Source: Bacteroidia bacterium (lineage in GTDB: Bacteria; Bacteroidota; Bacteroidia; AKYH767-A; OLB10). From it: 64,000 nucleotides of DNA. Numbering within the stretch: the first letter of the stretch is position 1; each line of letters begins with the position of its first letter. The position numbers were made by a program, and so were the translations under genes. Below are positions 8,632 to 58,156 of the stretch, one piece after another. The stretch is from positions 78,901 through 142,900 of the forward strand of contig DASUFP010000076.1 of NCBI GenBank assembly GCA_036274495.1, in the 5' to 3' direction. The notes beneath the pieces are model-generated. The model saw only the letters and a list, made by a program, of their open reading frames with translations. It made no database searches and was not told the origin of the DNA.

Positions 8632-8652
8632 AAACGGCCATTGATTTTCAAC

Positions 8653-8718: not shown

Positions 8719-9030
8719 ATGAAAAAGCCTGCCTGGTTACCACCTGCACTCACACTCTTCCGCAACAAATACTTTCTTACGTTGCTGGCTTTTTTGATTT
8801 GGATGGCTTTTGTGGACCGGAATAATTTTTATACCCGTTACTCCTACCACAAGGAACTTCAGAAGCTGAAAGACGAACGCGAATATTACATCGGCGAAAT
8901 AGAAAGCACCCGCCGTAAGAGTCACGAGCTTATGTCGAACCCGGCGAATCTTGAAAAATTTGCAAGAGAAGAGTACCTGATGAAAAAAGACAACGAGGAT
9001 GTTTTTCTGATCCGTCGTCCTCAGAGTTAA
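8719..9030 (+). CDS. ftsB: Septum formation initiator (FtsB/DivIC family)
   Basis: RNKYF plus a TM helix, a coiled coil, and [19 protein letters not shown]. Confidence 0.85.
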
Positions 9031-10580: not shown

Positions 10581-10598
10581 AAATTGAAAATTAAAAAA

Positions 10599-11129: not shown

Positions 11130-11455
11130 ATTACCTTATTCTATATGTCCGGCAAATATCGGAAAAAGGGATGATCTCCCTTATTAAATACCATATATTG
11201 TTGTTATTCAGTACATTACAATACAATAATGGCTTATTCAAAGATTATGGTTCCCAAGTCACTCAAATTCGTTTGAAATCAAAACAAGCACCGGATATCC
11301 GCTGCTGTATAATACAGAACATAACAGTTGTGCACAGGCATATCGTAATTACAGGTAATCACATCCATCGGCCTGCTTACATACTCCCTCAAAAGTTGCT
11401 AACGTATGGTGTGTAAATAACTTGTAGAGCGACGGCCCGCTACGCCCATTTTTGT

Positions 11456-37667: not shown

Positions 37668-37679
37668 TAAGTTTACCAG

Positions 37680-37707
37680 GCAGGGGGCAGATTGAAAATC
37701 CCCCTGC
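37680..37707 (+). terminator. GC-rich hairpin between nosZ and nosB-nosL (partial terminator or mRNA stabiliser)
   Basis: GCAGGGGG-N12-CCCCCTGC followed only by TTCTGTT. Confidence 0.6.
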
Positions 37708-37725
37708 TTCTGTTAAAGAAAAGTC

Positions 37726-39998: not shown

Positions 39999-40708
39999 TT
40001 TCCATCGGCCAACTTTGTAAAAGATATGGAAAATTACCAGTACTCAATAACATTAGCCTGGAATTGAATGCGGGGTCGTGCATTTCGTTGATTGGACCTA
40101 ATGCATCCGGTAAAACAACGCTACTAAAAATCATTCTTGGTATTGTCAGACCCGATTCAGGTACTATTGGTGTGGCCGGAACCAATGCTTTAGAAGGATA
40201 CCGTTACCGAGAAAACATTGGGTATATGCCTCAAATCGCAAAGTATCCTGATAATATGAGAGTTGGACAGGTAATTAATCTTTTGAAAAGTTTAAGGCCC
40301 TCAGGAATTGGGTATGATGAAGAGTTGTATACTACCTTTCGAATTAATGAAATCAGCAATAAACCGTTGCGTTCGCTTTCGGGAGGAACCCGACAGAAAG
40401 TAAGCGCCTGCCTTGCTTTTATGTTCAAAGCTCCTATTCTGATACTTGATGAACCTACTGCAGGGCTGGATCCATTGTCGGCTGAATTATTGAAAGCTAA
40501 AATTAAGAAAGAGGCCGGTGCAGATAAATTAATAATTGTAACATCCCATATATTAAGTGATCTGGAAGACATATCTACCCACATTGTTTATCTCCATGAG
40601 GGAAAAATACTATTTCATGAGACCATTTCAGAGATTCTTAAAAGAACCCGCACAACTTCCCTTTCCCTGGCTGTGGCAGAAATAATGCGCAATTCTTCTC
40701 ATGTTTAA
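39995..40708 (+). CDS. nosF: ABC ATPase NosF
   Basis: GPNASGKT, LSGGTRQK, LILDEPT, SH switch. It lies between nosD and nosY. Confidence 0.92.
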   Translation: MISIGQLCKRYGKLPVLNNISLELNAGSCISLIGPNASGKTTLLKIILGIVRPDSGTIGVAGTNALEGYRYRENIGYMPQIAKYPDNMRVGQVINLLKSLRPSGIGYDEELYTTFRINEISNKPLRSLSGGTRQKVSACLAFMFKAPILILDEPTAGLDPLSAELLKAKIKKEAGADKLIIVTSHILSDLEDISTHIVYLHEGKILFHETISEILKRTRTTSLSLAVAEIMRNSSHV

Positions 40709-41468
40709 AATCGTAAAATATATTCTTGCCGATATCCTAAAAAGCAGGGTAATATTGGCATATACTATTTTTTTAGCAACTATTTCAACAAGTTTATATT
40801 TACTCGATAGTAACCCCGATAAAAGCACCATCAGTCTGGTAAATATCAATTTAATCATCATTCCATTGATGAGCATAATTTTTACCACCATTCATTATTA
40901 CAATTCGTATGAATTCATCGAGTTGTTAGTAGCACAGCCAATTAGCCGCAATAGAATAGTGATGAGTGAATATGTGGCTGTTACATTATCTTTATTAATT
41001 GCCTTTATGGCAGGTGTTGGTATACCTATTATACTATTTAATATGAATACAGCCGGATGGTCAGTAATATATTCCGGACTTATGATAACCATTATTTTTT
41101 CATCATTGGCATTTCTTTGCTCCGTACTAACCAGAGACAAGACAAGAGGAATAGGCGCTGCATTGCTGGTTTGGCTGTTTTTTTCGATCATTTATGATGG
41201 TCTGATATTATTTATCCTATTTTCTTTCAATGACTATCCGATAGAACCTTTAATTATGGTTATAACGCACCTGAACCCTGTTGACCTGGCCAGAATTTTT
41301 ATGCTGATAAGATTGGATGTTTCCGCCATGATGGGATATACCGGTGCTTTGTATTTGGAATATTTTGGCGCTACAACGGGTATGTTCCTGTCTTCCATAG
41401 TAATGGTTTTATGGGCTGTTATACCCGTAACGATCGGCGTTAAAGTGTTTCGAAATAAAGATCTTTGA
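40701..41468 (+). CDS. nosY: ABC permease NosY
   Basis: Multi-TM, 'EFIELLVAQPISR', 'LNPVDLARI', 'MGYTGA'. Confidence 0.92.
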   Translation: MFKIVKYILADILKSRVILAYTIFLATISTSLYLLDSNPDKSTISLVNINLIIIPLMSIIFTTIHYYNSYEFIELLVAQPISRNRIVMSEYVAVTLSLLIAFMAGVGIPIILFNMNTAGWSVIYSGLMITIIFSSLAFLCSVLTRDKTRGIGAALLVWLFFSIIYDGLILFILFSFNDYPIEPLIMVITHLNPVDLARIFMLIRLDVSAMMGYTGALYLEYFGATTGMFLSSIVMVLWAVIPVTIGVKVFRNKDL

Positions 41469-41592
41469 GCGTAACCGTCTGAATCATCAAACACTACAGT
41501 TAAGCTGTGTTTTTGGTCAAAAAGTTATGGTTGGTTCCGGTTTTCCCTAATTTCATAACTTAGGGCCATGATATTCTTTTTTAAGGTGGCTT

Positions 41593-42996
41593 ATGAAGGG
41601 TAAATCCGTCGACTTTTCAAACATGAAGGATATTCGAATTTGGATTCTCCTTTTTTTTCTCATCCGCCTTATCGGAATCACCAATCCTCCGCTCGAAAAA
41701 GGGCACAACTGGAGGCAATCGCTTACTTGCATGATTACCCGCAATTTTGTTGAAGGCGGTCCCGATTTACTTTATCCGCGGATTGATATGGCCGGCGATC
41801 AAACAGGTATTATCGGGTCAGAGTTTCCGTTTTTTAATTATCTCTGTTACTTATGCAGTAAAGCATTCGGGTACACGCATTGGTATGGAAGACTTATCAA
41901 CCTGCTGATTTCATCCGCCGGTATTTTTTGTTTTTTCCTGTTGTCGAAAAAAATAATTGGTGACCGTGCAGCAGGCTATGCCGGCATACTGCTGCTTACT
42001 TCAATATGGTTTGCCTTTTCAAGAAAATCGATGCCGGATACGTTTAGCATTTCACTGGTGCTGATAGGACTGCATTTTTGTTCAGTATATTATTCATCCG
42101 GCAAAGTGTGGCACCTGTTGCTCTATTTTATCTTCACAACGCTTGGAACACTTTGTAAACTCCCGGCTATACTCTGGCTGGTGCCTGTAATTGCAACGCT
42201 TGTGATACCTGCCTTTCCAAAACAAAACAGGTTGTATACCGGTTTTGCGACAGTTATTTCCATGATAATCACCGGAGGCTGGTATTTTATATGGGTACCC
42301 CACCTGGTTGAAACCTATCATTACCAGCTTTACTTTCCAAAAAGTTTGGGCGAAGGACTGCATGAGATAGCCGGCGAAGTCCCGGGTTTGCTTAAGAACT
42401 TTTATTTTAATGCCTTCAGCTCCTATCTGGCATTCGCCTGTTTTGCAGCAGGTATTTATGTTTTTATCAGAAAATACAGCGATTATATATTAAAGACTAC
42501 AGCGGCTATTACTGTTGTTTTTTTTCTGTTCATCCTAAAAACCGGTGCGGTGTTTCCGCTACACAACTACTACATCATTCCATTTGTTCCGGTAATGGCC
42601 ATTATTGCAGCTGTCTTCCTGGATGCCATTCGTTTTAAAGTTGCATTGCTGATCCTTATTGCTGCTTCGGCCGAGGGTATTCTGAATCAGCAGCACGATT
42701 TCTTTATAAAACAAGATCAGGTTTATAAGCTCAGCCTTGAAACACTGCTTGACAAAAACACCTCCAAAAATGAACTTATAATTATTAACGGCGGACAAAA
42801 CCCACAACTCATGTATATGGCGCATCGAAAAGGATGGAGTGTGGATAATGATGTAATCGGCAATCAATCTAAAATAAAAGAGATGCAGTCAAAGGGCGCA
42901 ACCGTACTGGTTGTTGACAAAACCGAAGGTGTAACCGAACCGAATGACTACCATTTGATTGGTTCTGATGAACACTTTTGTGTTTACCGTCTGTAA
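41593..42996 (+). CDS. GT-C fold glycosyltransferase (ArnT/PMT-like, GT39/GT83)
   Basis: First loop 'HNWRQSLT', 'EFPFFNYL', 'GRLINL', 'MPDTFS', 'KLPA', multiple TM helices and a soluble C-terminal domain. Confidence 0.8.
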   Translation: MKGKSVDFSNMKDIRIWILLFFLIRLIGITNPPLEKGHNWRQSLTCMITRNFVEGGPDLLYPRIDMAGDQTGIIGSEFPFFNYLCYLCSKAFGYTHWYGRLINLLISSAGIFCFFLLSKKIIGDRAAGYAGILLLTSIWFAFSRKSMPDTFSISLVLIGLHFCSVYYSSGKVWHLLLYFIFTTLGTLCKLPAILWLVPVIATLVIPAFPKQNRLYTGFATVISMIITGGWYFIWVPHLVETYHYQLYFPKSLGEGLHEIAGEVPGLLKNFYFNAFSSYLAFACFAAGIYVFIRKYSDYILKTTAAITVVFFLFILKTGAVFPLHNYYIIPFVPVMAIIAAVFLDAIRFKVALLILIAASAEGILNQQHDFFIKQDQVYKLSLETLLDKNTSKNELIIINGGQNPQLMYMAHRKGWSVDNDVIGNQSKIKEMQSKGATVLVVDKTEGVTEPNDYHLIGSDEHFCVYRL

Positions 42997-46527: not shown

Positions 46528-47112
46528 ATGTTCGAAACACTGGTAAATATCGACTGGAGTTTATTCAAGGCCATCAACAGCCTTCATAGTGAATTTATGG
46601 ATTTGCTTATGTGGTGGGCCGCCGATCGTTTTTTCTGGATTCCCCTTTACCTTTTTCTTGCCTATTTCCTGTACCGTAAATATGGGCGGCTTGGATTGGT
46701 AATGATTGTATTTGCAGCATTGCTGATTGTCATCAGCGACCAGACTTCAGTTGTTATTAAAAACCTCGTTCAACGCGAACGTCCCTGCCATAATGAGGCA
46801 CTGGCCTTTGATGTGCATCTGGTACACGATAATTGTGGCGGCATGTACGGCTTTGTGTCATCGCATGCTGCCAACACCATGGCGCTGGCACTGTACATAA
46901 TGCTGCTTACAAAAATGCGGTTCAGGTGGCTGAACCGGACGCTTTTGTTTTATGCCGGTGTAGTGGCTTATTCAAGAGTGTACCTCGGCAACCATTACCC
47001 TGCCGATATTGTTGGCGGCTGGATAGTGGGATTTTTCGCAGCAATGGTTACCTATTACTTTTACCGGTCGCTTGCCGGAGAAAAATTTGACACTACGGAT
47101 TCAGAAACATGA
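46528..47112 (+). CDS. PAP2 family phosphatase (possible undecaprenyl-PP phosphatase)
   Basis: KNLVQRERP, FVSSHAAN, SRVYLGNHYPAD. Confidence 0.9.
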   Translation: MFETLVNIDWSLFKAINSLHSEFMDLLMWWAADRFFWIPLYLFLAYFLYRKYGRLGLVMIVFAALLIVISDQTSVVIKNLVQRERPCHNEALAFDVHLVHDNCGGMYGFVSSHAANTMALALYIMLLTKMRFRWLNRTLLFYAGVVAYSRVYLGNHYPADIVGGWIVGFFAAMVTYYFYRSLAGEKFDTTDSET

Positions 47113-47480
47113 ATAGTTTCCTGCTTGTATTTCTTGGTGGAGGACTTGGAAGTGTATTGCGGTACGGCATTTCCGTTATGCTGAAATCAACTGCAACCCT
47201 GTTCCCTGTAGCCACACTTGCCGCAAACGGGGCCAGTTCTTTTGTGCTCGGACTCATCATGGGATTTTTATCGGCACGCGAAGGCCACACCACACCCGTT
47301 ACACTATTTCTGGCAGCCGGATTTTGCGGTGGCTTCAGCACGTTCAGTACTTTCAGTGCCGAAACATTTGAATTTCTGAAACACGGTCAGCTTTCCTATG
47401 CGCTGTTGAATATTGCGGCTAATCTGCTTATCTGCCTGGTGGCGATTGGAGCCGGAATGTTTTTATCAAAAAATTTCTGA
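47109..47480 (+). CDS. crcB: Fluoride channel Fluc/CrcB
   Basis: GGGLGSVLRY, ATLAAN, GFCGGFSTFSTF. ATGA overlap with the PAP2 gene. Confidence 0.93.
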   Translation: MNSFLLVFLGGGLGSVLRYGISVMLKSTATLFPVATLAANGASSFVLGLIMGFLSAREGHTTPVTLFLAAGFCGGFSTFSTFSAETFEFLKHGQLSYALLNIAANLLICLVAIGAGMFLSKNF

Positions 47481-47545: not shown

Positions 47546-50209
47546 TTACATCTTGAGCACCTTGGTTCGGTAAACCGAATTGTTGGAGCGTATTTCAATT
47601 GAATAGGTTCCTGCGGGCAGGTTAAATTCCAGATCGTTTTTCGCCTGATGAATCTCAATGGTCCTGACCAATCCGCCAAGGACATTATAAATAGTAACTA
47701 CTGCACGGTCATTAACGGGAGCCGCAAGTTCAATGGTCAGTTTGTCGGCAACAGGGTTTGGATAAACCGCAAATCCGTTTTGCGAAAGCAGTTCCTGGAT
47801 GCCGGTTGTAAATACCTGCTGTGATGTTGCTGTGCAGCCATTGGCACCTGTTACCACAACCGTATAGGTACCCGATTGTGTGGCAACGTATACCTGACCC
47901 GTTGCTCCCGGAATCGGATTACCATTGAGGTACCATTGATTACCGGTTGGCGACGATGAAGTTAAGGTATTCCACAATGGTGAAATGGTTGGTGTTGGAG
48001 GAAGCGGCAACACTACTCCCGTTACCGGGATGCGGTTGCTTTTACATCCTTCGGTTACAACCCAGTCGTAGAAGAAATAATAGAACGTACCTGCTGAATA
48101 ATTCGGATTAATCTGTCCTGTTAAAGTAATCGGACTGTTTGAAACTGTGTAGGGATATAATGCGCCAAATGAGTTATAGTAACACGCTGCACTGCCTGCG
48201 GCAAGTTCCAGCCTGTACCCTGTTCCGGGGTTTATGGTAAAGCCAAGGGGAACAGCTACCAATCCCGAATTGGCCGTTACAGGAACGGTAACGGTATTCA
48301 ACACAGGCCCGCCTGCTGCATCGCGCAGGTTAATGGTAATGTTTCCCGATGTTGCGCCGGGAGAAACATACACCCGTTCTAACGTACATTGCGCAAGTGC
48401 ATCAAACTGTATTCCCCAGTCGTTGCCCGGCAGGGTAAATTGTGTACCGATACTTGGGTTGGGGGCACCAACATTGTAGGTACCTCCTGCAGCCGCTTCC
48501 ACATAATAAGTTGTTGTGTTTGTTAAGGACGGTGAATAGGTATTGCCCTGGAACACATTCAACCCGCCACTTGCAGTAGTAAACCAACTCATGATTCCTA
48601 CCCCCGTGGCCGTAAGGTTAGCAGCTCCCGGCCCGCATATCGTATCGTTTGAGACGACCGGATCGGTTATTGCCAAGACCTCCACGCTCAGTTCAACTGT
48701 GGTATCGGCATCGCAACCGCCGCTGGTGACGACTGCTCTGTAGGTAGAATACGTAGTTGGTGTTACCTGATATTGAGCTGTTGTGCTGCCCGGTCCGGTT
48801 TCATTCACCCAGCTGCTTCCATTGTAGCTCTGCCATTGAATGGCACCGGTAGATCCGGTTAAAAACAACGTAGCGTTATCGCCCAAACAAACCGTATCGG
48901 ATGAAATAATTGCATTTCCCGCTACCGAGGGCGAACCGGTCACAATCAGAATACTGTCAATATAGCCGCAAACGCCATCATCACTTACTAATGTAATATA
49001 GGTACTTCCCGTTCCAACCGGTGTGTACGTAACAGTTGTTCCTGTAGTAGCACTTAACCCTGCCGATGGAGACCATGTGTAAGTGTAACCTGAGTTGGTG
49101 CTGTTTGCAGTGAGTGTAGCAGACTGACCCAGACACAAGGCTGTGGGTACAGATGAAATGGTTGCGGGAGTAGCAGTATTTACCGTTGCAATTACAGGGG
49201 TGCGTGCGCTTTCACAGCCGGCCGAATATAAAATTCTTCCGTTGAATATGCGGGGGAAATTGGTCAGAGCAAAATAGGCGCCGCCGTAACCTTCTTTAAA
49301 TTCGATGTTCGCATCCTGAGCAAATATGTTTCCTAAAGCAGTTCCGTCGGTATACGTTATGCCACCTGAACCATGCACGTAAAAGGCATAGGTTTGTCCT
49401 GCCGGAATGGTAACGTTAACAAATACATTTATAGATGTACCGGGCGCACCATTACCGGTTGATGTATAAGGAGCCGTTCCTGCAAGTGTCCAACCGGCAT
49501 TGCTGTTGGTAAAACCAACGTGTGTTCCCGGACGGTACCAGATTTCGGCAGTGCCTGATCCTGCATTAAAATTCGCCGCAAAGCTGTCGATGGTAACTGT
49601 GTTAATAGCGGTAATATCAAACATATTTCCGTCAAACCCGTTTCCTCCGGCAAAGGTGGTTGTCATGGGCGATGGCGGCCCTCCGCCTAACGTAGAGGCT
49701 GCATAAAAGGTAGTAGTGGCAGACACAACAGGAGTGAATGTAGTTCCTGTTCCAAGCTGCGCACCGCCCGATGCAACATTATACCATTTGATGCCCGATC
49801 CTGTTGCTGACAAAGTAACAGGACCATAACCACACCGTGAAGCACCTGCAGTAGTTGGTGCACTTACCCCTACCGTTATAGTAACAAGTGCTGATGTATC
49901 AGGGTCGCAGCCCGATGCAGTTACTACCGCTCTGTAATCGGTTGTCATTCCCGGAGAAACTGTATAAGTGTCGGTAGTAGCTCCGGTGCCGGTTTCATCT
50001 GTCCAGTTGGTTCCATCAAACGACTGCCATTGGATGTTGCCGATGTAAGAGGTAAGCAACAGGTCAGTGCTGCCCATAGGACAAATTGAATCCAAGGAAG
50101 CCGAAGCCGTTCCGGCATCACTGCAAGGCTGTGCCATACCTGCTCCCGAAAAAATAAATAAATACGACAGCAAGGTTGTTGCTGTTACTTTGAGTAAAAA
50201 TGTTTTCAT
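47546..50209 (-). CDS. T9SS type A cargo with Ig-like repeats (paralogue A)
   Basis: Signal peptide from ATG 50209 (MKTFLLK...AQ), Ig-like 'TTAGASRCGYGPVTL...WY...GG' modules, and CTD 'VYPNPVADKL...NVLGG...AGTYSIEI...KVLKM'. Confidence 0.88.
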   Translation of the reverse strand: MKTFLLKVTATTLLSYLFIFSGAGMAQPCSDAGTASASLDSICPMGSTDLLLTSYIGNIQWQSFDGTNWTDETGTGATTDTYTVSPGMTTDYRAVVTASGCDPDTSALVTITVGVSAPTTAGASRCGYGPVTLSATGSGIKWYNVASGGAQLGTGTTFTPVVSATTTFYAASTLGGGPPSPMTTTFAGGNGFDGNMFDITAINTVTIDSFAANFNAGSGTAEIWYRPGTHVGFTNSNAGWTLAGTAPYTSTGNGAPGTSINVFVNVTIPAGQTYAFYVHGSGGITYTDGTALGNIFAQDANIEFKEGYGGAYFALTNFPRIFNGRILYSAGCESARTPVIATVNTATPATISSVPTALCLGQSATLTANSTNSGYTYTWSPSAGLSATTGTTVTYTPVGTGSTYITLVSDDGVCGYIDSILIVTGSPSVAGNAIISSDTVCLGDNATLFLTGSTGAIQWQSYNGSSWVNETGPGSTTAQYQVTPTTYSTYRAVVTSGGCDADTTVELSVEVLAITDPVVSNDTICGPGAANLTATGVGIMSWFTTASGGLNVFQGNTYSPSLTNTTTYYVEAAAGGTYNVGAPNPSIGTQFTLPGNDWGIQFDALAQCTLERVYVSPGATSGNITINLRDAAGGPVLNTVTVPVTANSGLVAVPLGFTINPGTGYRLELAAGSAACYYNSFGALYPYTVSNSPITLTGQINPNYSAGTFYYFFYDWVVTEGCKSNRIPVTGVVLPLPPTPTISPLWNTLTSSSPTGNQWYLNGNPIPGATGQVYVATQSGTYTVVVTGANGCTATSQQVFTTGIQELLSQNGFAVYPNPVADKLTIELAAPVNDRAVVTIYNVLGGLVRTIEIHQAKNDLEFNLPAGTYSIEIRSNNSVYRTKVLKM

Positions 50210-50385
50210 TGATCCTTGATTTTTGTGGTTGGACTCAGCTTTTAAAATTAGGTAAAATACTTTGAGCAACGTCAAACACTTTTATGCAGTTTCTACCGGC
50301 AGTTTGTGGATTTCCATGCTTATATAAGTCGTCCGGAACAAACTGTGTTGTAAAGCATTAGAACCTGAAACGTTTGGTTAACCAT

Positions 50386-50418
50386 AAAAAATGCCTGCCG
50401 AAAGAATCCGGCAGGCAT
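50386..50418 (-). terminator. Intrinsic terminator after paralogue B
   Basis: ATGCCTGCCG-N8-CGGCAGGCAT with a T5 run on the minus strand. Confidence 0.85.
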
Positions 50419-50441
50419 CAGATTATGCGGAGTACCTGAAG

Positions 50442-53117
50442 TTACATCTTCAGCACCTTGGTGCGGTAAACCGAGTCGTTGGCACGTATCTCAATTGAAT
50501 AGGTTCCGGCAGGCAGGTTAAAGTCTAAATCGTTTTTCGACTGATGAATCACAATCGTCTTAACCAATCCGCCAAGCACATTATAAATATTAACAACAGC
50601 TCTGTCTTTTACGGGAGATGCAAGTTCTATTGTCAGTTTGTCGGCAACAGGATTAGGATAAACAGCAAATCCGTTTTGCGAAAGCAGTTCCTGAATGCCG
50701 GTTGTAAACACTTGCTGTGAAGTAGCTGTGCAACCATTTGCTCCTGTTACCACAACAGTGTATGTACCCGATTGCGTAGCTACATACACCTGTCCTGTCG
50801 CACCCGGAATAGGATTACCATTCAGGTACCACTGATTTCCTGTAGGTGAAGAGGAAGTTAAAGTGTTCCATTGCGGAGCAATGGTAGGTGTAGGCGGTAA
50901 TGGGAGCACGGCACCTGTTACAGGTATGCGGTTGCTTTTGCATCCCTCTGTAACAACCCAGTCGTAGAAGAAATAATAGAATGTACCGGCAGAATAGTTC
51001 GGGTTGATTTGTCCTGTTAAGGTAATCGGACCGTTAGGTACCGAATAAGGATATGCGGCCCCGAAAGAATTATAATAACATGGGGTACTTCCTGCAGCAA
51101 GTTCCAGACGGTAGCCTTGACCTGGATTCACGGTAAAGCCAAGGGTAACAGGTACTAAACCGGAACTGGCCGTTACAGGCACCGTTACGGTATTCAGAAT
51201 CGGACCGCCTTGTGAACTGCGCAAATTGATCGTTATGTTTCCGGATGTAGGCCCGGGTGAAACATAAACCCGTTCCAGGGTACACTGAGCAAGTGCATCG
51301 AACTGGATTCCCCAGTCGTTACCCGGCAACGTGAAAAACGTACCTATGCTTAAATCGGGCGCCCCCACATGATAGGTCCCACCCGCGGCGGCTTCCACAT
51401 AATAGGTGGTTGTGTTTGTCAGCGACGGCGAATAGGTGCTGCCCTGGAATACATTTAATCCGCCGGTTGGCGTGGTATACCAACTCATAATACCCGCACC
51501 GGTGGCCGTCAGGTTGGCCGTTCCCGGCCCGCATATCGTATCGCCTGTGACCAGCGGATCGGTTATGGCCAAGACCTCAACGCTAAGTTCAATGGATGTA
51601 TCAGGATCACAGCCACCGCTGGTGACCACGGCCCTGAAAGTGGAAAAGGTTGTTGGAGTAACCTGGTATTGTGCAGTAGTATTGCCCGGCCCGGTTTCAT
51701 TCACCCAGTTGGTTCCATTAAAACTCTGCCACTGGATTGATCCGGTAGAACCTGTTAAAAACAACGATGCATTATCGCCCAGACAAACGGTATCGGACGA
51801 AATAATTGCCGTACCGGCAACCGAAGGCGAACCGGTTACAATCTGAATGCTATCGATGTATCCGCAAACCCCATCGTCTCCAACGAGGGTAATATAGGTG
51901 CTGCCTGTTCCAACCGGAGTATAGGTAACTGTAGCTCCGGTAGTGGTATTTAAACCGGCCGATGGCGACCAGGTATAGTTATAACCGGTGTTGGAACTGC
52001 TGGCGGTAATGGTGGCTGACTGACCTAGGCACAAAGCAGGAGGAACGGATGTAATGGTAACCGGCACAGGAGGATTCACTGTTGCTACAGCAGGTGTGCG
52101 TGAACTCTCGCAACCTACCTCGTAGGTAATTTCGAGCCGCGAGATAGAACCACCTACTTCCTGCCATATGTCCTGAGGGGCAATAGTGGCAAGCGGGAAT
52201 TGCATACCCATACGTGCAATGGTTACTGATTGTCCGTCGATGGTGGTTGTTGCGGGACCATTCGCATAAGAGTTCACATCAGCACCGCGAGTGGCAAGTA
52301 CACCTATTACATCGCCGGCAGCAATGGAAATGTTTACCGGAATTACACCGGTCGCCGGATTGTTTTGAGTTAAAAACAGTGTTGAGAAAGCATTGGTGGT
52401 GGCAGCAAAAACCGGAGGCGGTATCTGGTTGTCGAAACGGATGACAGCAATATTCTGGTTACCGGTATTGGGACCGGGTACAAAGAGGCCTGTTATGTTA
52501 AAGTCGGAAGGAGCGGTAAAAAAGTATCCCCGCGCATTTCCTGCGAAAGTTGTAACCTCCGCCGGCATTGGCGTGGTGCCTGATCCGCCGCCATTGGATG
52601 ATGCGGATGCATAAAAGGTTGTAGTGTTATTCACATTCGTTACCAGGTTGGTCCCGAAACCTACAGGAGTACCGCCTGTGGGCACATCATACCATCGGAT
52701 ACCGGAGCCTGCTGCCGTCAGCGACACCGGTCCGTATCCGCACCGGGTATCACCTATAGTAGTAGGAGCCGTTACGCCAACAACTATTGTAAGGATGGTA
52801 GAAGTATCGGGATCACATCCGGAGGCTGTAACTACAGCGCGATAGTCAATTGTCGCGGCAGGGGTAACCAGATAATTATCTGTTGTAGCACCCGGACCCG
52901 TCTCATCTATCCAGTTGGTTCCGTTGTACGATTGCCATTGGATGTTACCGATATAGGCTGTCAGTAACAGATTGGTACTGCCTCCGACACAGATAGAATC
53001 CTCAGTTGTAGAAGGTGTTCCTGCATCGGAACAGGGTTGGGCATTGGCGGGTGCCGTTAGGAAAAAAGCTGCAGCAACAGCAAAAACCGACAACATTCGA
53101 AGTACATTTATTTTCAT
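50442..53117 (-). CDS. T9SS type A cargo with Ig-like repeats (paralogue B)
   Basis: Same architecture and near-identical C-terminal two-thirds to paralogue A, plus a type A CTD. Confidence 0.9.
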   Translation of the reverse strand: MKINVLRMLSVFAVAAAFFLTAPANAQPCSDAGTPSTTEDSICVGGSTNLLLTAYIGNIQWQSYNGTNWIDETGPGATTDNYLVTPAATIDYRAVVTASGCDPDTSTILTIVVGVTAPTTIGDTRCGYGPVSLTAAGSGIRWYDVPTGGTPVGFGTNLVTNVNNTTTFYASASSNGGGSGTTPMPAEVTTFAGNARGYFFTAPSDFNITGLFVPGPNTGNQNIAVIRFDNQIPPPVFAATTNAFSTLFLTQNNPATGVIPVNISIAAGDVIGVLATRGADVNSYANGPATTTIDGQSVTIARMGMQFPLATIAPQDIWQEVGGSISRLEITYEVGCESSRTPAVATVNPPVPVTITSVPPALCLGQSATITASSSNTGYNYTWSPSAGLNTTTGATVTYTPVGTGSTYITLVGDDGVCGYIDSIQIVTGSPSVAGTAIISSDTVCLGDNASLFLTGSTGSIQWQSFNGTNWVNETGPGNTTAQYQVTPTTFSTFRAVVTSGGCDPDTSIELSVEVLAITDPLVTGDTICGPGTANLTATGAGIMSWYTTPTGGLNVFQGSTYSPSLTNTTTYYVEAAAGGTYHVGAPDLSIGTFFTLPGNDWGIQFDALAQCTLERVYVSPGPTSGNITINLRSSQGGPILNTVTVPVTASSGLVPVTLGFTVNPGQGYRLELAAGSTPCYYNSFGAAYPYSVPNGPITLTGQINPNYSAGTFYYFFYDWVVTEGCKSNRIPVTGAVLPLPPTPTIAPQWNTLTSSSPTGNQWYLNGNPIPGATGQVYVATQSGTYTVVVTGANGCTATSQQVFTTGIQELLSQNGFAVYPNPVADKLTIELASPVKDRAVVNIYNVLGGLVKTIVIHQSKNDLDFNLPAGTYSIEIRANDSVYRTKVLKM

Positions 53118-53230: not shown

Positions 53231-53262
53231 TTTGCTTTGCGTTTAATTATGATGTATATTTG
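53231..53262 (+). promoter_or_regulatory. Consensus Bacteroidota promoter TTTG-N20-TAnnTTTG
   Basis: TTTG at 53231-53234 and TATATTTG at 53255-53262, upstream of the methyltransferase. Confidence 0.7.
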
Positions 53263-53329: not shown

Positions 53330-53968
53330 ATGGCTCAAGTATACGTGCAGTACGGCTGCGGCTTATCAGCACCGGTTGAATGGACCAATTTTGACGCTTC
53401 CCCGACGCTTCGCATTCAAAAAACCCCACTGGTAGGGTCGATTTTAAAGAGCCGTCTCAATGTTACCTTCCCGAAGAATGTAAAATACGGCGACATCGTT
53501 TCCGGATTACCTGTAGCGGCAGATAGCTGTGACGGATTGTATTGCTCGCATGTACTTGAACATTTATCGTTACAGGACTTCAGGGCCGCATTAAAAAATT
53601 CTTTTAAAATCCTCAAAAAAGGAGGCCTTTTCAGGTGTGTCGTACCCGATCTTGAGAAACTTGCCAGAGAATACATCACCTCTTTGGATCAGGGTGATGC
53701 ACAGGCGAGTGTTAAATTTGTCGGATTTAATACCATCCTGGGCACCGAATCGAGACCTAAAGGATTCAAAGGCCTTATCAATAATTTTTTAGGAAATGCC
53801 AATCACCTATGGATGTGGGATCATCTTTCGTTAAGCGAAGAATTAAAAAAAGCCGGGTTCATCAATATACGCAGATGTAAATACAACGACAGCAGCGACC
53901 CGATGTTTAAATACGTTGAAGATCCGGTACGTTTTGAGGGCGCAGTAGCACTCGAGTGCAGCAAGTGA
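53330..53968 (+). CDS. Class I SAM-dependent methyltransferase (Methyltransf_11-like)
   Basis: QYGCG motif I, 'GDIVSGLP', 'YCSHVLEHL', 'LKKGG.FRCVVPDL', 'HLWMWD'. Confidence 0.85.
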   Translation: MAQVYVQYGCGLSAPVEWTNFDASPTLRIQKTPLVGSILKSRLNVTFPKNVKYGDIVSGLPVAADSCDGLYCSHVLEHLSLQDFRAALKNSFKILKKGGLFRCVVPDLEKLAREYITSLDQGDAQASVKFVGFNTILGTESRPKGFKGLINNFLGNANHLWMWDHLSLSEELKKAGFINIRRCKYNDSSDPMFKYVEDPVRFEGAVALECSK

Positions 53969-54070
53969 TTCCGGAATTCTTTTTAACGGTTACCTGTTCT
54001 GTTTTTAAATGATGTGGATTAAACGATTCACAAAACGGCATCTACAGTTGCAATACATGCATCAAAAGCA

Positions 54071-55279
54071 ATGACCACTACTGCCAAAAATGTAGTTTTT
54101 TTATTACTGGTGCTGGCAGCAATGGCGGCAATATTTCCTTTTTTCGGCAATGCCAAATTGCTTGTCGATGAGAACGACAACTATGCGCAGATTACCAATT
54201 TTCTGCACCACGATTTCAGGTTACTCGAAATTTCGGCATTGCCGGGATACCACTTTTTAGTGACTGCGATTGCAATGCTGTTTGGTTTTTCATCGGTTTA
54301 CGAAATCAGAATCGTAACTGCAGTTATTGGATATTTATCGGTTTGTGTCTACCTGTTTTTATCAGTAAAAATTCACGGGAAAACAGATTTTACAGGGACA
54401 CTTCAATACCTGCTGATGCCCATAATTTTTGTTTTTCTTTTTTTGATTTATACCGACATAGCATCACTTATGGCAGTAATGCTGATGGTTCATGCGGTAC
54501 TTGACAGAAAATATACACTGGCAGCCTTGTACGGACTTGCAAGCATGTTGTTTCGGCAGAACAATGTTATTTGGATCCTTTTTGCGATGACATTATCCTA
54601 TGCCGAACAGTACGGACATACACTTTCAATCAGCAATCTGAAAGCCTCCATCAGCAGGTTCTGGTTGTTTTTGGTTTGTGTAATGCTGTTTATTTTATTT
54701 GTCATTTTCAATCATGGTGTTGCTGTTGGTGATGCGGCCAGTCATCCGGCATTCAAATTTTCGACCGGCAACATTTTCTTTTTACTCTTTACCATTTTTG
54801 TAATGTTGCTGCCGCTGCAGGCAGCTGCACTTCCGAAAGTGTATAGCCTTTTAACAGAACATAAATGGCTCTTTGCTCTTTTGCTGATTATCTTTATTCT
54901 CTACTGGTTCTCTTATCATCCCGATCACCCCTACAACCGGATTGAACCTCAGTATTACATGCGGAATTTAATTCTGACCAGAGTTCAGCTTAATTCAGTG
55001 TATAAACTATGTTTCTTTTTCCCTGTGGCATATGCCCTTCTTTTTCTGATGGTCACCCCTTTCATTTCATCCAAATACTACCTTATTTATCCTTTTACCA
55101 TCCTTTTCCTTGCTCCAAGCTGGCTGGTTGAACAGCGTTATTATCTGATTCCCTTGGTTTTACTGATGAGTTTCAGAAAAAAAAGCAGTGTGTTGGCCGA
55201 GTGGATAACCATTGGATGGTTTTTGGTAATTCTGTATTTAATGTTACCTTTATTGTGGCAGGAAAGAATTTTCTTTTGA
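54071..55279 (+). CDS. ALG10/DIE2-like (GT59) multi-TM glucosyltransferase homologue
   Basis: Collinear ALG10 motifs: VDE..Y.Q, SALPG, FLIYTD, FRQNNVIW, FNHGVAVGDAASH, HPY, LVEQRYYLIP. Confidence 0.8.
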   Translation: MTTTAKNVVFLLLVLAAMAAIFPFFGNAKLLVDENDNYAQITNFLHHDFRLLEISALPGYHFLVTAIAMLFGFSSVYEIRIVTAVIGYLSVCVYLFLSVKIHGKTDFTGTLQYLLMPIIFVFLFLIYTDIASLMAVMLMVHAVLDRKYTLAALYGLASMLFRQNNVIWILFAMTLSYAEQYGHTLSISNLKASISRFWLFLVCVMLFILFVIFNHGVAVGDAASHPAFKFSTGNIFFLLFTIFVMLLPLQAAALPKVYSLLTEHKWLFALLLIIFILYWFSYHPDHPYNRIEPQYYMRNLILTRVQLNSVYKLCFFFPVAYALLFLMVTPFISSKYYLIYPFTILFLAPSWLVEQRYYLIPLVLLMSFRKKSSVLAEWITIGWFLVILYLMLPLLWQERIFF

Positions 55280-55292: not shown

Positions 55293-55835
55293 ATGAAAAA
55301 GACGTTTTTAGCATATTTGTTTTCCATACTGTATAGCCTTTCCTTTGGGCAGGCATTTACATTGGTCAGCGCGGATGCATCGGGAAACGTACCGGCCAAA
55401 ATGGTTTACAACGGCTATGGTTGTGACGGCGATAATATATCACCTCAATTAAGCTGGACAAATGCTCCTGAAGGAACACGCAGCTTTGCCGTGACCATGT
55501 TCGATCCCGATGCTCCTGTAAACAATGGCTGGTGGCATTGGATCTGCTTTAACATTCCCGCAGGTGTACACGAATTACCATCAGGCGCCGGTTCTGTTGA
55601 AAAAAAACTCGCTCCCGAGGGCACCATTCAAAGCATGACCGACTTTGGCAAGCCCGGTTATGGCGGACCATGTCCTCCTGAAGGAAGTGATTACCATCAT
55701 TATGTTATTACCGTTTACGCACTGAAAACCGACAAACTCAATTTAGACAGTACTGCCGCACCGGATGTTGTAAAAAGCGCAATCGATGCCGGCACCATTG
55801 CCAAAGCAACGCTAATACTTCAATACAAAAGATAA
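55293..55835 (+). CDS. YbhB/YbcL family (PEBP/Raf kinase inhibitor-like) periplasmic protein
   Basis: Signal peptide, GDNISPQLSW, FDPDAP...WWHW, YGGPCPP, HHYVITVYAL. Confidence 0.93.
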   Translation: MKKTFLAYLFSILYSLSFGQAFTLVSADASGNVPAKMVYNGYGCDGDNISPQLSWTNAPEGTRSFAVTMFDPDAPVNNGWWHWICFNIPAGVHELPSGAGSVEKKLAPEGTIQSMTDFGKPGYGGPCPPEGSDYHHYVITVYALKTDKLNLDSTAAPDVVKSAIDAGTIAKATLILQYKR

Positions 55836-55945: not shown

Positions 55946-58156
55946 ATGAAAAAATTTCTTTTAGCTTCCTTTTTGTTTGCGTATGTTTCAGCTACAGCAC
56001 AAAACCTGGTACCTAATCCGGGCTTTGAAAATACCACACCAAGCTGCGGTATTTTCGGATTGGGAATGTTCAGCTCCACCACTCCTCCCTGGATCAGCCC
56101 CAACGCAGGTTCACCCGATATATGCCATTCTTCACTGGCATTAAGTTGTCCCAATACTACAGTTGGCTCAACAAGTTTTTCGGCATGGGGTTCCGAACCA
56201 CCACACGGGGGCAGCGCCTACGCTGCAATGATTACCTATTGTTCAGGTTGCGCTTCTGAAACCAGGGAATACCTTCAGGTTCAGTTGTCGAGTCCATTGG
56301 TAGTCGGACAAACATACGCAGTTGAATTTTATGTTTCACCCGGCGAACAGTGCCAATGGATCACAAATAACATCGGCGCTTATTTGTCTACCACCCCACC
56401 TACCTCTTCCACCTGGCCCAGCTTACCTTATACGCCTCAGATAAATTATACGAGTGTAATATCAAACACAAACGGCTGGACACAAATAGCAGGAACAGTT
56501 ACTGCTACTGCGCCCTATTCGTACATTACCATTGGCAACTTTTTTACAGATGCCAATACCACTATTAACACTGGTGCAGGTTCGCTTATCTGGGCAGTTT
56601 ATTTTGTTGATGACATCTCCGTAACACTTGCCGTTCCGGTATTAACGGTAAACGGCGATTCCACTATCTGTGCGGGAGATTCTGCTGTTATCAATGCCAA
56701 TTTTGGAACCACCTATGCCTGGGCAAACGCTGCAAATCCGGGAACAATAATTTCAACCGACTCCACTATTGTGGTGTACCCGGCAGCAACAACTACCTAT
56801 TTGGTTTACGGAGCTACTGATACACTCTCGTTTACCGTTAATGTTTTAAATACACCAACCGTTTCGCTGGGAGCAGACACCTTGTTGTGTTCCGGACAAA
56901 CCCTGCAACTCTCTGCAGCCTATCCGGGAGCTACCTATCTCTGGCAAAACGGCACCACCGATTCACTATTTAACGTAAACCAATCAGGCATCTATTCGGT
57001 AACAGTAACAAATGCATGCGGCTCCAACACGGATGCCATTCAGGTATTGTACATTAATGCCCCTGCGGTTTTTCTGGGTAACGACACATTAATGTGCAAC
57101 GGCACTTCATTAACCTTAAATGCAACTTCAACCGGGGCACAATACCTGTGGCAGAACGGAGCCACTACTTCTTCAATCAATGTAAACCAGCCCGGAACTT
57201 ATTATGTCGGTGTTTTAAATCAATGCGGGTTTGCAACCGATACCATTAACATCAGTTACCAAAATATACCGCAAGTTTATCTGGGCAACGATACCACCAT
57301 TTGTCAGGGCAACTCAATTGTACTCGATCCCGGACTTTCCAATGTCACTTACTTATGGCAAAACGGAAGTATGACTCCTACCCTATCAGTAAACGCGGCA
57401 GGAAGTTACTGGCTGACCGCTGCAAATGCGTGCGGCACGAATTCAGACACCATCAACGTTCAGATCACCAACCTGCCGGCAGTAACGCTTGGCAGTGATA
57501 CCTCATTTTGTTTTGGCTCATCCATTGTTCTCGACGCTACTTCTGCCGGAGGCAGTTATGCGTGGAGTGACGGTTCTACAACATCCGCTATTCAGGTTTC
57601 CCAGACAGGTAACTACTCCGTTACCGTTACAAACAACTGCGGCTCTTCTACCGCTTCTGTTTCAATAACTGTGATTGCATTACCGGTAGTTAATCTGGGA
57701 GCCGACACCTCGCTGTGTACCGGCGACACCCTGTTGCTTGACGCGACTGAGCCCAATGCCGGCTACCTGTGGCAGGACGGTTCGGGAAATCCGGTTTTCC
57801 AGGTAACAACACAGGGTGTATATGCCGTTACGGTAACTGCTGACGGATGCTCGGCTGCTGATTCAATAATTGTTTCAGAGGGACTTTGTGATGTGCTAAT
57901 TGAAATGCCTGTTGTATTTTCGCCTAACGGTGATGGGATAAACGACCACTATGTTCCGCTTACCTACATTGGAATTGAATCAGCCAGATTAACGCTGTTC
58001 AATCGCTGGGGAAATCAAATCGCGGAAACATCAAACCTGGAGTCCGGTTGGGATGGCGGCGATCATCCTCAGGGCACCTATTTCTGGATTGTAAATTATA
58101 CCGATATCAATAATAACAGCGGCCAGCTGAAAGGCTACCTTACCTTGTTACGTTAA
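55946..58156 (+). CDS. T9SS type B cargo: CBM-like N-terminal domain, six ~65-aa Ig-like repeats, gliding-motility CTD
   Basis: QNLVPNPGFE...REYLQVQLSSPLVVGQTY, repeats P.V.LG.DT.LC.G...YLWQ.G, and CTD 'MPVVFSPNGDGIND...FNRWG...WDG...GTYFW'. Confidence 0.88.
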   Translation: MKKFLLASFLFAYVSATAQNLVPNPGFENTTPSCGIFGLGMFSSTTPPWISPNAGSPDICHSSLALSCPNTTVGSTSFSAWGSEPPHGGSAYAAMITYCSGCASETREYLQVQLSSPLVVGQTYAVEFYVSPGEQCQWITNNIGAYLSTTPPTSSTWPSLPYTPQINYTSVISNTNGWTQIAGTVTATAPYSYITIGNFFTDANTTINTGAGSLIWAVYFVDDISVTLAVPVLTVNGDSTICAGDSAVINANFGTTYAWANAANPGTIISTDSTIVVYPAATTTYLVYGATDTLSFTVNVLNTPTVSLGADTLLCSGQTLQLSAAYPGATYLWQNGTTDSLFNVNQSGIYSVTVTNACGSNTDAIQVLYINAPAVFLGNDTLMCNGTSLTLNATSTGAQYLWQNGATTSSINVNQPGTYYVGVLNQCGFATDTINISYQNIPQVYLGNDTTICQGNSIVLDPGLSNVTYLWQNGSMTPTLSVNAAGSYWLTAANACGTNSDTINVQITNLPAVTLGSDTSFCFGSSIVLDATSAGGSYAWSDGSTTSAIQVSQTGNYSVTVTNNCGSSTASVSITVIALPVVNLGADTSLCTGDTLLLDATEPNAGYLWQDGSGNPVFQVTTQGVYAVTVTADGCSAADSIIVSEGLCDVLIEMPVVFSPNGDGINDHYVPLTYIGIESARLTLFNRWGNQIAETSNLESGWDGGDHPQGTYFWIVNYTDINNNSGQLKGYLTLLR

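What the first reader, a model, noticed from the sequence alone, without database searches (positions are those of the whole stretch)
53330..55279. Bacterial homologue of the eukaryotic ER glucosyltransferase ALG10/DIE2 (GT59), downstream of a methyltransferase
The 402-aa multi-TM protein matches human ALG10, as I recall its sequence, motif by motif and in order: VDENDNYAQ~MDEIFHLPQ, ISALPGY~ITTLPGL, IRIV~LRFV, PIIFVFLFLIYTDIAS~PTLYFFNFLYYTEAGS, FRQNNVIW~FRQTNIIW, FVIFNHGVAVGDAASH~FVVVNGGIVIGDRSSH, HPY~HKY, LVEQRYYLIP~LLEFRYFILP, and a terminal RIFF~RFMW. ALG10 adds the last glucose to the dolichol-linked N-glycan precursor using Dol-P-Glc, a pathway bacteria lack. This copy must therefore use another donor and acceptor, perhaps undecaprenyl-P-Glc with an O-glycan, LPS or T9SS-cargo glycan. 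It lies behind a consensus promoter and a glycan-type methyltransferase, next to T9SS cargo genes. It is the best candidate here for an undescribed glycosylation step, and is relevant to the origin of GT59.
Basis: partly seen in the sequence, partly recalled or inferred. Interest (0 to 1): 0.72.

Follow-up and report, generated by a model that had tools for sequence, protein, structure and literature searches.

The report
Bacterial ALG10-family membrane glycosyltransferase gene
A soil Bacteroidota genome encodes a true relative of ALG10, the eukaryotic enzyme that adds the last glucose to the N-glycan precursor. It belongs to a large, unstudied prokaryotic branch of a family that the papers I could search call eukaryote-only, and its target sugar chain is unknown.

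Summary
ORF 54071-55279 (+, 402 aa) matches Pfam PF04922 DIE2/ALG10 at 102 bits against a cut-off of 27. It aligns over its full length with real eukaryotic ALG10s (hhalign probability 100, E 4e-46, 374 columns). It keeps about 30 positions conserved in both domains, including the loop-1 Asp-Glu pair. AlphaFold2 gives a confident model (pLDDT 95) whose best matches are all GT-C enzymes.

It is neither contamination nor a recent transfer from a eukaryote. In my tree, 66 prokaryotic sequences separate from 20 eukaryotic ones on a long branch with 100% support. GC3 equals that of the neighbouring genes, and dN/dS against a 78% orthologue is 0.13.

The prokaryotic branch is large (1045 50%-identity clusters at E<=1e-30, eukaryotes included) and patchy across Bacteria, CPR and DPANN archaea.

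The only recurrent neighbour is a small GT2 polyprenyl-phosphate sugar synthase, and one protein is a GT2-ALG10 fusion. The donor is therefore most likely a polyprenyl-P-hexose. The acceptor is unknown.

The methyltransferase link is not supported. The methyltransferase is generic, and it sits beside the gene only in this contig and its 78% relative. Adjacency to T9SS cargo genes is real but unconserved.

The gene is a member of a family already auto-annotated in databases, but no prokaryotic member has been characterised. Interest is moderate.

The parts
54071..55279 (+). ALG10/DIE2-family (GT59-type) GT-C membrane glycosyltransferase, 402 aa. Positions conserved with eukaryotic ALG10 include D33-E34, Q40, P58-G59, R80, P117, Y127-T128-D129, R162-Q163-N165-W168, N214, G216, G220, H225, H286, E354, R356-Y357 and P361. 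N37 replaces a His that is present in 100% of the eukaryotic and 85% of the prokaryotic sequences.
   Evidence: ORF; Pfam PF04922 102 bits; hhalign probability 100, E 4e-46 against eukaryotic ALG10s; conserved columns; AF2 pLDDT 95.3, pTM 0.94; best Foldseek hits are ArnT, STT3/PglB, ALG12 and Pmt4; dN/dS 0.13 against the L065 orthologue.
53330..53968 (+). Generic class I SAM-dependent methyltransferase, 212 aa, starting at motif I (YGCG). It lies upstream, on the same strand, separated by a 102-bp gap. The link to the glycosyltransferase is not conserved.
   Evidence: Pfam Methyltransf_23 and Methyltransf_11 at 31 bits; only sub-threshold NCBIfam hits; best PDB hit E 0.011; homologue present only in L065 and L067 among all loci.
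53231..53262 (+). Bacteroidota-type promoter-like motif TTTG-N20-TATATTTG, 68 bp upstream of the methyltransferase ATG.
   Evidence: Pattern count: 2 such motifs on the + strand of the window. The generic sigma-70 scan was not enriched over shuffles. Function is inferred only.
55293..55835 (+). PEBP/YbhB-family protein with an N-terminal signal-like segment, starting 13 bp after the glycosyltransferase stop. It is probably co-transcribed. The synteny is conserved only in the 78% relative.
   Evidence: Pfam PBP E 3.5e-42; NCBIfam TIGR00481 148 bits; synteny in L065 and L067.
50442..53117 (-). T9SS cargo protein (Ig_7 repeats plus a Por_Secre_tail C-terminal domain), divergently transcribed. It is context, not shown to be part of a unit. 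Its paralogue lies at 47546-50275 (-).
   Evidence: Pfam.
55946..58156 (+). T9SS cargo protein with a CHU_C (type B) C-terminal domain. It is context only.
   Evidence: Pfam.

Best explanation
ORF 54071-55279 encodes a functional inner-membrane glycosyltransferase of the GT-C fold. It belongs to the prokaryotic sister branch of eukaryotic ALG10 (Pfam PF04922, CAZy GT59 type).

Inferred mechanism:
- A cytoplasmic-face GT2 enzyme of the Dpm1/GtrB/ArnC type loads a hexose onto a polyprenyl (undecaprenyl) phosphate.
- The lipid-linked sugar is flipped to the periplasmic face.
- The ALG10-like enzyme transfers that single sugar, with inversion, to a glycan acceptor. The Asp33-Glu34 pair in its first periplasmic loop and the other conserved loop residues would carry out this step.

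Shown here: family membership, full-length homology, conservation of the family's signature residues, the GT-C fold, purifying selection, and native (non-eukaryotic) origin.

Inferred: the donor class, from GT2 neighbours and one GT2 fusion in relatives; and the side of the membrane, from the known GT-C families.

Unknown: the identity of the sugar (glucose is only the precedent from ALG10) and the acceptor. The family also occurs in CPR bacteria and DPANN archaea, which have no LPS. If relatives share an acceptor type, it is more likely a lipid-linked or protein/S-layer glycan than LPS itself.

The upstream methyltransferase and the flanking T9SS cargo genes are most likely unrelated neighbours.
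For: - Pfam PF04922 at 102 bits against a cut-off of 27, as the only family matched.
- hhalign of prokaryotic against eukaryotic profiles: probability 100, E 4.3e-46, 374 columns.
- About 30 columns are conserved at >=80% in both domains and kept in the window protein, including D33, E34, Y127-T128-D129, R162-Q163, E354 and R356-Y357.
- AF2 model with pLDDT 95.3 and pTM 0.94. The top Foldseek hits are all lipid-linked-sugar GT-C enzymes: ArnT, PglB/STT3/AglB, ALG12 and Pmt4.
- GT59 is classed as an inverting family that uses a lipid-P-monosaccharide (PMC10920833).
- Small GT2 genes are the commonest neighbour family. They are concentrated next to the gene: 5 of the 12 GT2-like ORFs found in the loci are immediately adjacent and 8 of 12 lie within two genes (Fisher p 0.012 and 0.002).
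- The best solved relatives of these GT2s are ArnC, GtrB (sll0501) and Dol-P-Man synthase.
- P0089 is a GT2-ALG10 fusion whose GT2 half also matches ArnC and GtrB best.
- dN/dS is 0.13 against the 78% orthologue.
- In the tree, the window protein sits in a Bacteroidota subclade (95% support) inside a prokaryotic clade separated from eukaryotes at 100% support.
- GC3 is 0.439, the same as the neighbouring genes.
Against: - No GT2 of the polyprenyl-phosphate type is found anywhere in the 64-kb window (tblastn). The rest of the genome could not be searched because the genome search was shut.
- Only about 1 in 7 relatives has such a GT2 nearby. Most sit among unrelated housekeeping genes.
- His37, invariant in the eukaryotic sequences and present in 85% of the prokaryotic ones, is Asn here and in some relatives.
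- No member of the prokaryotic branch has been characterised, so donor, sugar, linkage and acceptor are all extrapolated.
- Foldseek matches are weak (TM 0.4-0.5, E >= 5e-3) because no ALG10 structure turned up, by sequence or by fold.
Confidence: 0.72

Rival explanations
1. The methyltransferase and the ALG10-like enzyme form a two-gene glycan-decoration module. The module would add a sugar and methylate it on an O-glycan, LPS or the glycan of the neighbouring T9SS cargo proteins.
For: - The two genes are on the same strand with a 102-bp gap, behind one Bacteroidota-type promoter motif.
- The arrangement is kept in the 78% relative L065.
- T9SS cargo genes flank the pair.
Against: - No homologue of the methyltransferase occurs in any of the 64 genome loci or in the 48% Bacteroidota relative's locus.
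- No methyltransferase family appears among the 25 commonest families in the +-2 neighbours.
- The methyltransferase matches only generic SAM models.
- It has no signal peptide or TM segment visible in its sequence, so it would act in the cytoplasm while the GT-C acts outside.
- The L065 synteny extends over the whole region, including aroA, aroB and proline dehydrogenase. It therefore reflects close kinship, not functional linkage.
Confidence: 0.12
2. It is a GtrC-like serotype-converting enzyme. It would add a side-branch hexose from Und-P-hexose onto the O-antigen or LPS core in the periplasm.
For: - It has the GT-C fold, and relatives sit next to GtrB/ArnC-like GT2 genes.
- Tandem paralogue arrays in L041 and the patchy distribution resemble accessory surface-variation genes.
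- Wzy_C, Polysacc_synt and sugar-nucleotide genes lie nearby in a few loci.
Against: - The family is also present in CPR bacteria and DPANN archaea, which have no LPS (established knowledge).
- No GtrA-type flippase appears among the commonest neighbour families.
- There is no gtrB-like gene or O-antigen cluster in this window.
Confidence: 0.2
3. The gene is eukaryotic contamination or a recent horizontal transfer from a eukaryote.
For: The only characterised members of the family are eukaryotic. A 2016 survey reported no prokaryotic BLAST homologues of the luminal glycosyltransferases (PMC4973528).
Against: - All 66 prokaryotic sequences lie on one side of a branch with 100% support and a length of about 2 changes per site, away from the 20 eukaryotic sequences.
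- Identity to eukaryotic ALG10 is only about 25-28%.
- The protein lacks the eukaryotic insert of about 35 residues and the C-terminal extension.
- GC3 equals that of the neighbours.
- The gene lies on a 170-kb bacterial contig among aro, nos, pur and T9SS genes.
- An orthologue in conserved synteny occurs in an independent metagenome.
Confidence: 0.01
4. The protein has lost or changed catalysis. It would then be, for example, a lipid-linked-sugar binding or scaffolding protein, because the conserved His37 of the DExxH loop-1 motif is Asn.
For: The window protein has N37 where His stands in 100% of the eukaryotic and 85% of the prokaryotic sequences.
Against: - All other signature residues are retained.
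- The same His-to-Asn change is shared by several diverged relatives (P0002, P0003, P0006, P0007, P0010, P0021) that are otherwise conserved.
- dN/dS of 0.13 shows constraint.
Confidence: 0.05

Closest known systems
Eukaryotic ALG10/DIE2 (Dol-P-Glc:Glc2Man9GlcNAc2-PP-Dol alpha-1,2-glucosyltransferase; CAZy GT59; Pfam PF04922)
   Same: - Same Pfam family, above the curated cut-off.
- Homology along the whole length.
- The same conserved loop motifs: DE..(H)..Q, PG, R, YTD/E, RQ.N..W, N.G...GD...H, H.Y and LE.RY...P.
- GT-C fold.
- Probably the same chemistry, namely inverting transfer of one sugar from a polyprenyl-phosphate sugar.
   Different: - Only 25-28% identity.
- A separate clade on a long, fully supported branch.
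- 402 aa against about 470 aa. It lacks an insert of about 35 residues after residue 183 and the C-terminal WPN...QRFMW extension.
- N37 in place of His.
- The lipid carrier must be a bacterial polyprenol rather than dolichol, and the eukaryotic acceptor does not exist in bacteria (established knowledge).
- Sugar and acceptor are unknown.
GtrA/GtrB/GtrC O-antigen glucosylation system of Shigella/Salmonella phages, and ArnC/ArnT lipid A modification
   Same: The logic is the same. A GT2 enzyme makes Und-P-sugar, and a periplasm-facing GT-C enzyme transfers that sugar to an envelope glycan. Relatives of the window gene sit next to, or are fused with, GtrB/ArnC-like GT2s. ArnT is the best structural match.
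   Different: - There is no sequence-level membership. PF04922 is the only Pfam hit.
- This window contains no GT2 partner or flippase.
- The family extends to organisms without LPS.
Other uncharacterised prokaryotic PF04922 proteins (for example the Teredinibacter turnerae hypothetical protein P0062, the Spirochaetes MAG protein P0033 and JGI 'alpha-1,2-glucosyltransferase' calls)
   Same: Same clade, length and motifs. They are labelled automatically from the eukaryotic family name.
   Different: The window protein belongs to a small Bacteroidota subclade (window, P0002, P0003, P0004, L056). It is only 26-48% identical to every relative found except its 78% orthologue P0002.

Membership tests
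DIE2/ALG10 family (Pfam PF04922; CAZy GT59 type) | Score above the curated Pfam gathering threshold | tested here: met
   102 bits against a cut-off of 27, E 5.7e-29, two stretches, and the only family hit.
DIE2/ALG10 family (Pfam PF04922; CAZy GT59 type) | Full-length homology to bona fide eukaryotic ALG10 sequences | tested here: met
   hhalign of A1 (35 prokaryotic) against A3 (16 eukaryotic): probability 100, E 4.3e-46, 374 columns, window residues 26-400 aligned to 34-465 of the 478-residue mammalian sequence P0286. BLASTP gives 9e-9 against the mammalian and 4e-16 against the fungal protein.
DIE2/ALG10 family (Pfam PF04922; CAZy GT59 type) | Conserved acidic motif in the first extracytoplasmic loop (DE..H..Q) and the other signature loop residues | tested here: met
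   D33, E34, Q40, P58, G59, R80, P117, Y127, T128, D129, R162, Q163, N165, W168, N214, G216, G220, H225, H286, E354, R356, Y357 and P361 are all present. The one exception is N37 in place of His.
DIE2/ALG10 family (Pfam PF04922; CAZy GT59 type) | GT-C fold (polytopic membrane protein; catalytic loop after TM1) | tested here: met
   AF2 model with pLDDT 95.3 and pTM 0.94, all-helical. Foldseek top hits are ArnT, STT3/PglB/AglB, ALG12 and Pmt4, but TM-scores are only 0.4-0.5. No ALG10 structure turned up: no PDB sequence match and none among the Foldseek hits.
DIE2/ALG10 family (Pfam PF04922; CAZy GT59 type) | Activity: alpha-1,2 transfer of glucose from Dol-P-Glc to Glc2Man9GlcNAc2-PP-Dol | not testable with these tools
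   Bacteria do not make this acceptor (established knowledge). The donor class is inferred from GT2 neighbours and a fusion.
DIE2/ALG10 family (Pfam PF04922; CAZy GT59 type) | Eukaryote-type architecture (about 470 aa, with the central insert and the C-terminal WPN...QRFMW tail) | tested here: not met
   The protein is 402 aa. The insert after residue 183 and the C-terminal tail are absent in all prokaryotic members. Prokaryotes form a separate clade. This defines a subfamily and does not exclude the protein from the family.
Gtr-type (GtrA/GtrB/GtrC) or Arn-type two-step envelope glycosylation module | Polyprenyl-phosphate GT2 synthase encoded next to the GT-C transferase | tested here: not met
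   No such GT2 occurs in the 64-kb window (tblastn with 8 GT2 queries, E<1e-3). It is met in a minority of relatives (8 of 59 loci within 6 genes) and by one fusion.
Gtr-type (GtrA/GtrB/GtrC) or Arn-type two-step envelope glycosylation module | Small GtrA-family flippase nearby | tested here: inconclusive
   It is not among the 25 commonest Pfam families of the +-2 neighbours. Rarer hits are not listed by the tool, and the window itself was not scanned gene by gene for it.
   Only the generic Methyltransf_11 and Methyltransf_23 models match, at 31 bits. The MftM oligosaccharide methyltransferase model scores 11.8 bits against a cut-off of 200. The best PDB hit is E 0.011. Linkage is seen only in the 78% relative.

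The most novel reading that the evidence does not exclude
The prokaryotic ALG10-like clade may be the stock from which the eukaryotic ER-luminal glucosyltransferase arose. This Bacteroidota gene is one member of that clade, which runs to hundreds or more 50%-identity clusters across Bacteria, CPR and DPANN archaea. [quoted passage not shown] That would be a prokaryotic counterpart of the luminal phase of N-glycan precursor assembly. In Bacteroidota the target could be the precursor of the general protein O-glycan. If so, both the origin of GT59 and an undescribed periplasmic glycan-extension step become testable in cultured carriers such as Chitiniphilus, Tahibacter, Dyella and Teredinibacter.
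Probability: 0.15. Interest if true: 0.8.

Novelty: new variant of a known kind. Interest (0 to 1): 0.45.

Why it matters
The papers I could search treat ALG10 and the other ER-luminal glycosyltransferases as eukaryotic inventions without prokaryotic homologues (PMC4973528). No paper in the held library mentions prokaryotic PF04922 members.

This gene adds a Bacteroidota example to a deep, well-populated prokaryotic sister branch. That branch bears on where the luminal half of the N-glycan pathway came from. It also points to an uncharacterised extracytoplasmic glycosylation step in many bacteria and ultra-small archaea.

The weight of this single finding is limited for three reasons:
- The family is already in Pfam, and pipelines label its members automatically.
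- The same branch has been met repeatedly in this scan.
- Nothing in this window reveals the acceptor.

Tried and rejected
- A PDB sequence search with the protein gave no hit even at E 10. No ALG10 structure turned up to compare with.
- The search for related loci with the 35-sequence alignment failed because no conserved stretch was found. I repeated it with 12 closer sequences.
- A word-based homologue search from the window protein and from the most Pfam-like bacterial member, P0165, returned no eukaryote. It pulled real eukaryotic ALG10s. The probe was used for retrieval only, and every comparison used the real sequences.
- I looked for a conserved operon. All-vs-all clustering of +-6 neighbours in 60 loci found only GT2 recurring across lineages. 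The other recurrent neighbours (rpoA/rplQ in Xanthomonadales-type genomes, ribosomal S3Ae/L44 in DPANN) are lineage synteny.
- tblastn of the GT2 partners against the window gave no hit.
- The low GC of the gene (0.393) is not evidence for foreign origin. GC3 is normal, and the other GT-C in the window is similarly low.
- The generic sigma-70 promoter and terminator scan was no better than shuffles.
- The sequencing-run search found only one soil-metagenome DNA run and no RNA, so I could not test expression.
- The model coordinates are not exposed, so I could not verify on which membrane face the conserved residues cluster.
- The genome search and the fetch from genomes were shut, so I could not search the rest of the genome for the GT2, flippase or glycan clusters.
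Full report
**What is there**

The finding spans two ORFs on the + strand. One is a 212-aa protein at 53330-53968 and the other a 402-aa polytopic protein at 54071-55279, separated by a 102-bp gap.

- A 180-aa PEBP/YbhB-family gene follows 13 bp after the second ORF, at 55293-55835.
- Upstream and divergent lie two roughly 900-aa paralogues with Ig_7 repeats and a Por_Secre_tail T9SS sorting domain (47546-50275 and 50442-53117).
- Downstream lie a CHU_C-tailed T9SS cargo protein, a TonB_C protein, a phosphodiesterase, aroA and aroB.
- The T9SS domains and a TTTG-N20-TAnnTTTG promoter motif at 53231-53262 mark the host as a Bacteroidota bacterium. That motif is one of two on the + strand of the window.
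- The only public run holding this stretch is a soil metagenome.

**Checking the observation**

- The 402-aa protein matches Pfam PF04922 (DIE2/ALG10) at E 5.7e-29 and 102 bits, against a gathering score of 27. Nothing else matches.
I used a search-only probe for this and then compared the true window protein with them.
- A fungal Alg10 aligns over the C-terminal 250 residues, including the GD..H, HP(Y/F) and LE.RY..P blocks.
- A profile of 35 prokaryotic relatives against a profile of 16 eukaryotic ALG10s gives hhalign probability 100, E 4.3e-46, over 374 columns. This covers residues 26-400 of the window protein.
- In a joint alignment, about 30 columns are conserved at >=80% in both domains and carry the same residue in the window protein: D33, E34, Q40, P58, G59, R80, P117, Y127, T128, D129, R162, Q163, N165, W168, N214, G216, G220, H225, H286, E354, R356, Y357 and P361.
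- The one signature position that deviates is 37. His stands there in all eukaryotic and 85% of prokaryotic sequences, but the window protein and some relatives have Asn.
RFMW lies in a eukaryote-only C-terminal tail.

**Fold**

With the 35-sequence alignment, AlphaFold2 gives a very confident all-helical model (mean pLDDT 95.3, pTM 0.94). The best Foldseek matches in the PDB are all GT-C enzymes that use lipid-linked sugars: ArnT, PglB/STT3/AglB, ALG12, Pmt4, ALG3/9 and EmbB/C. TM-scores are only 0.4-0.5. No ALG10 structure turned up, either by sequence or among the Foldseek hits.

**Native or foreign?**

- A maximum-likelihood tree (LG+C20, 86 sequences) puts all 66 prokaryotic sequences on one side, and the 12 named plus 8 unnamed eukaryotic-type sequences on the other, of a branch with 100% SH-aLRT support. 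The branch is about 2 changes per site long.
- The window protein sits with P0002 (78% identity), P0003, P0004 and a Bacteroidota MAG protein (L056) in a subclade with 95% support.
- Its GC3 (0.439) equals that of its neighbours (0.43-0.47). Its low total GC (0.393) comes from its hydrophobic composition, as for the other GT-C in the window.
- The 78% orthologue lies in the same gene order in an independent JGI metagenome. dN/dS between the two is 0.13, with dS about 1.

Contamination or recent transfer from a eukaryote is excluded. The gene is under purifying selection.

**How big and how known is the prokaryotic branch?**

- A profile search of 1.84 billion cluster representatives finds 4131 proteins at E<=1e-3 and 1045 at E<=1e-30. 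The best 150 are mostly about 400 aa, like the prokaryotic form; a few are longer because of N-terminal extensions.
- Among species-representative genomes, 64 loci were confirmed in Acidobacteriota (Vicinamibacterales), Pseudomonadota, Bacteroidota, Planctomycetota, Verrucomicrobiota, Omnitrophota, Elusimicrobiota, Spirochaetota, Myxococcota and Gemmatimonadota.
- The loci also include CPR groups (Peribacteria, Microgenomates, Shapirobacteria) and DPANN archaea (Nanoarchaeota, Woesearchaeota).
- Cultured carriers are Chitiniphilus, Deefgea, Tahibacter and Dyella.
- The phylogeny does not follow taxonomy: archaea are nested among bacteria. This implies exchange among prokaryotes.
- Source pipelines already name many members 'alpha-1,2-glucosyltransferase' by transfer from the eukaryotic family.
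- A 2016 study of the pathway's origins says the luminal glycosyltransferases appear unique to eukaryotes and that BLAST finds no prokaryotic homologues (PMC4973528). I found no paper on prokaryotic PF04922 members.
- Earlier notes of this scan report the same family in at least six other genomes. They agree with my reading but are not independent evidence.

**What does it do?**

GT59 is an inverting family that takes a lipid-phosphate monosaccharide donor (PMC10920833). I looked for genomic partners in 60 loci.

- The only neighbour family that recurs across lineages is a small GT2. Of the 12 GT2-like ORFs found in the loci, 5 are immediately adjacent and 8 lie within two genes. Fisher tests against the positions of all other ORFs in the same loci give p 0.012 and 0.002.
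- Pfam tallies of the +-2 neighbours put Glycos_transf_2 first on both sides.
- The closest solved relatives of these GT2s are ArnC, GtrB (sll0501) and archaeal Dol-P-Man synthase. All are polyprenyl-phosphate glycosyltransferases.
- One metagenomic protein, P0089, is a GT2-ALG10 fusion whose GT2 half again matches ArnC and GtrB best.
- Other neighbours seen a few times are further GT-C enzymes (PMT_2, PMT, GT87, Wzy_C), Wzx-type flippases and sugar-nucleotide enzymes.
- An Omnitrophota locus has five or six tandem paralogues.

The best-supported mechanism is a two-step, Gtr/Arn-like scheme. A GT2 enzyme loads a hexose on undecaprenyl (polyprenyl) phosphate. [quoted passage not shown]

The sugar and the acceptor are unknown. 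The family also occurs in organisms without LPS, so LPS cannot be its general acceptor.

Several cautions apply. Most loci, including this one, show no glycan context at all. The window holds no GT2 partner.

**The methyltransferase and the T9SS neighbours**

- The 212-aa protein is a class I SAM methyltransferase by generic models only (31 bits). There is no glycan-specific family match and no informative solved relative.
- A homologue lies next to the ALG10-like gene only on this contig and in the 78% relative. That relative shares the whole region's gene order, so the arrangement reflects kinship.
- The 48% Bacteroidota relative sits between an acyl-CoA dehydrogenase gene and a BNR/sortilin gene. 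None of the 64 genome loci encodes a homologue.

The 'glycan methyltransferase plus glycosyltransferase' module and the link to T9SS cargo are therefore unsupported, though not excluded for this genus.

**Comparison with what is known, and verdict**

The protein passes every sequence and fold test for the DIE2/ALG10 family. It belongs to a prokaryote-specific subfamily with these differences:

- It is shorter and lacks the eukaryotic insert and tail.
- It lies on a long separate branch.
- It necessarily uses a bacterial polyprenol and a different acceptor.

It works most like a GtrC/ArnT-type enzyme but is not a member of those families.

I rate it a new variant of a known kind. The family is real and uncharacterised in prokaryotes, and it is relevant to the origin of the luminal N-glycan steps. 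But it is already catalogued in Pfam and by pipelines, it has been met repeatedly in this scan, and this window gives no clue to its substrate. Interest is 0.45.

Noticed in passing
window 35691-42996 (+): There is a nitrous-oxide reductase cluster: nosZ with nos_propeller, nosL, nosD, an ABC ATPase and an ABC-2 permease. It is followed directly by a second GT-C membrane glycosyltransferase (41593-42996, 467 aa, PMT_2/ArnT-like, E 2.7e-11). Whether that GT-C is linked to the nos genes is unknown.
   Followed up: no
window 46528-47480 (+): A PAP2-family lipid phosphatase (46528-47112) overlaps by 4 bp with a CrcB fluoride channel gene (47109-47480).
   Followed up: no
window 47546-53117 (-): Two tandem paralogues of about 900 aa encode T9SS cargo proteins. 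Their N- and C-terminal thirds are nearly identical and their middle parts are divergent. Both have Ig_7 repeats and a Por_Secre_tail.
   Followed up: partly
L041 (Omnitrophota MAG JAKLFP010000004.1), about 1-11200: Five full-length ALG10-like paralogues of about 405 aa and one truncated copy stand head to tail.
   Followed up: partly
L004 (Methanosarcinales MAG) and L010 (Woesearchaeota): Their ALG10-like proteins are almost identical (end branches 0.026 and 0.046) although the bins belong to different archaeal phyla. The likely explanation is a mis-binned contig or a very recent transfer.
   Followed up: no
P0089; also P0130 and P0162 (metagenomic proteins; the P0162 cluster includes Vicinamibacterales members): P0089 fuses an ArnC/GtrB-like GT2 domain to the ALG10-like domain. 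P0130 and P0162 (747-768 aa; longer members of the P0162 cluster reach 805 aa) carry N-terminal extensions of about 350 aa with no Pfam match.
   Followed up: partly
L026, L030, L045, L063, L064 (Lysobacterales/Rhodanobacteraceae and other Gammaproteobacteria): In several of these genomes the ALG10-like gene lies close downstream of rpoA and rplQ, at the end of the ribosomal protein region. L055 and L064 carry a second paralogue beside it.
   Followed up: no
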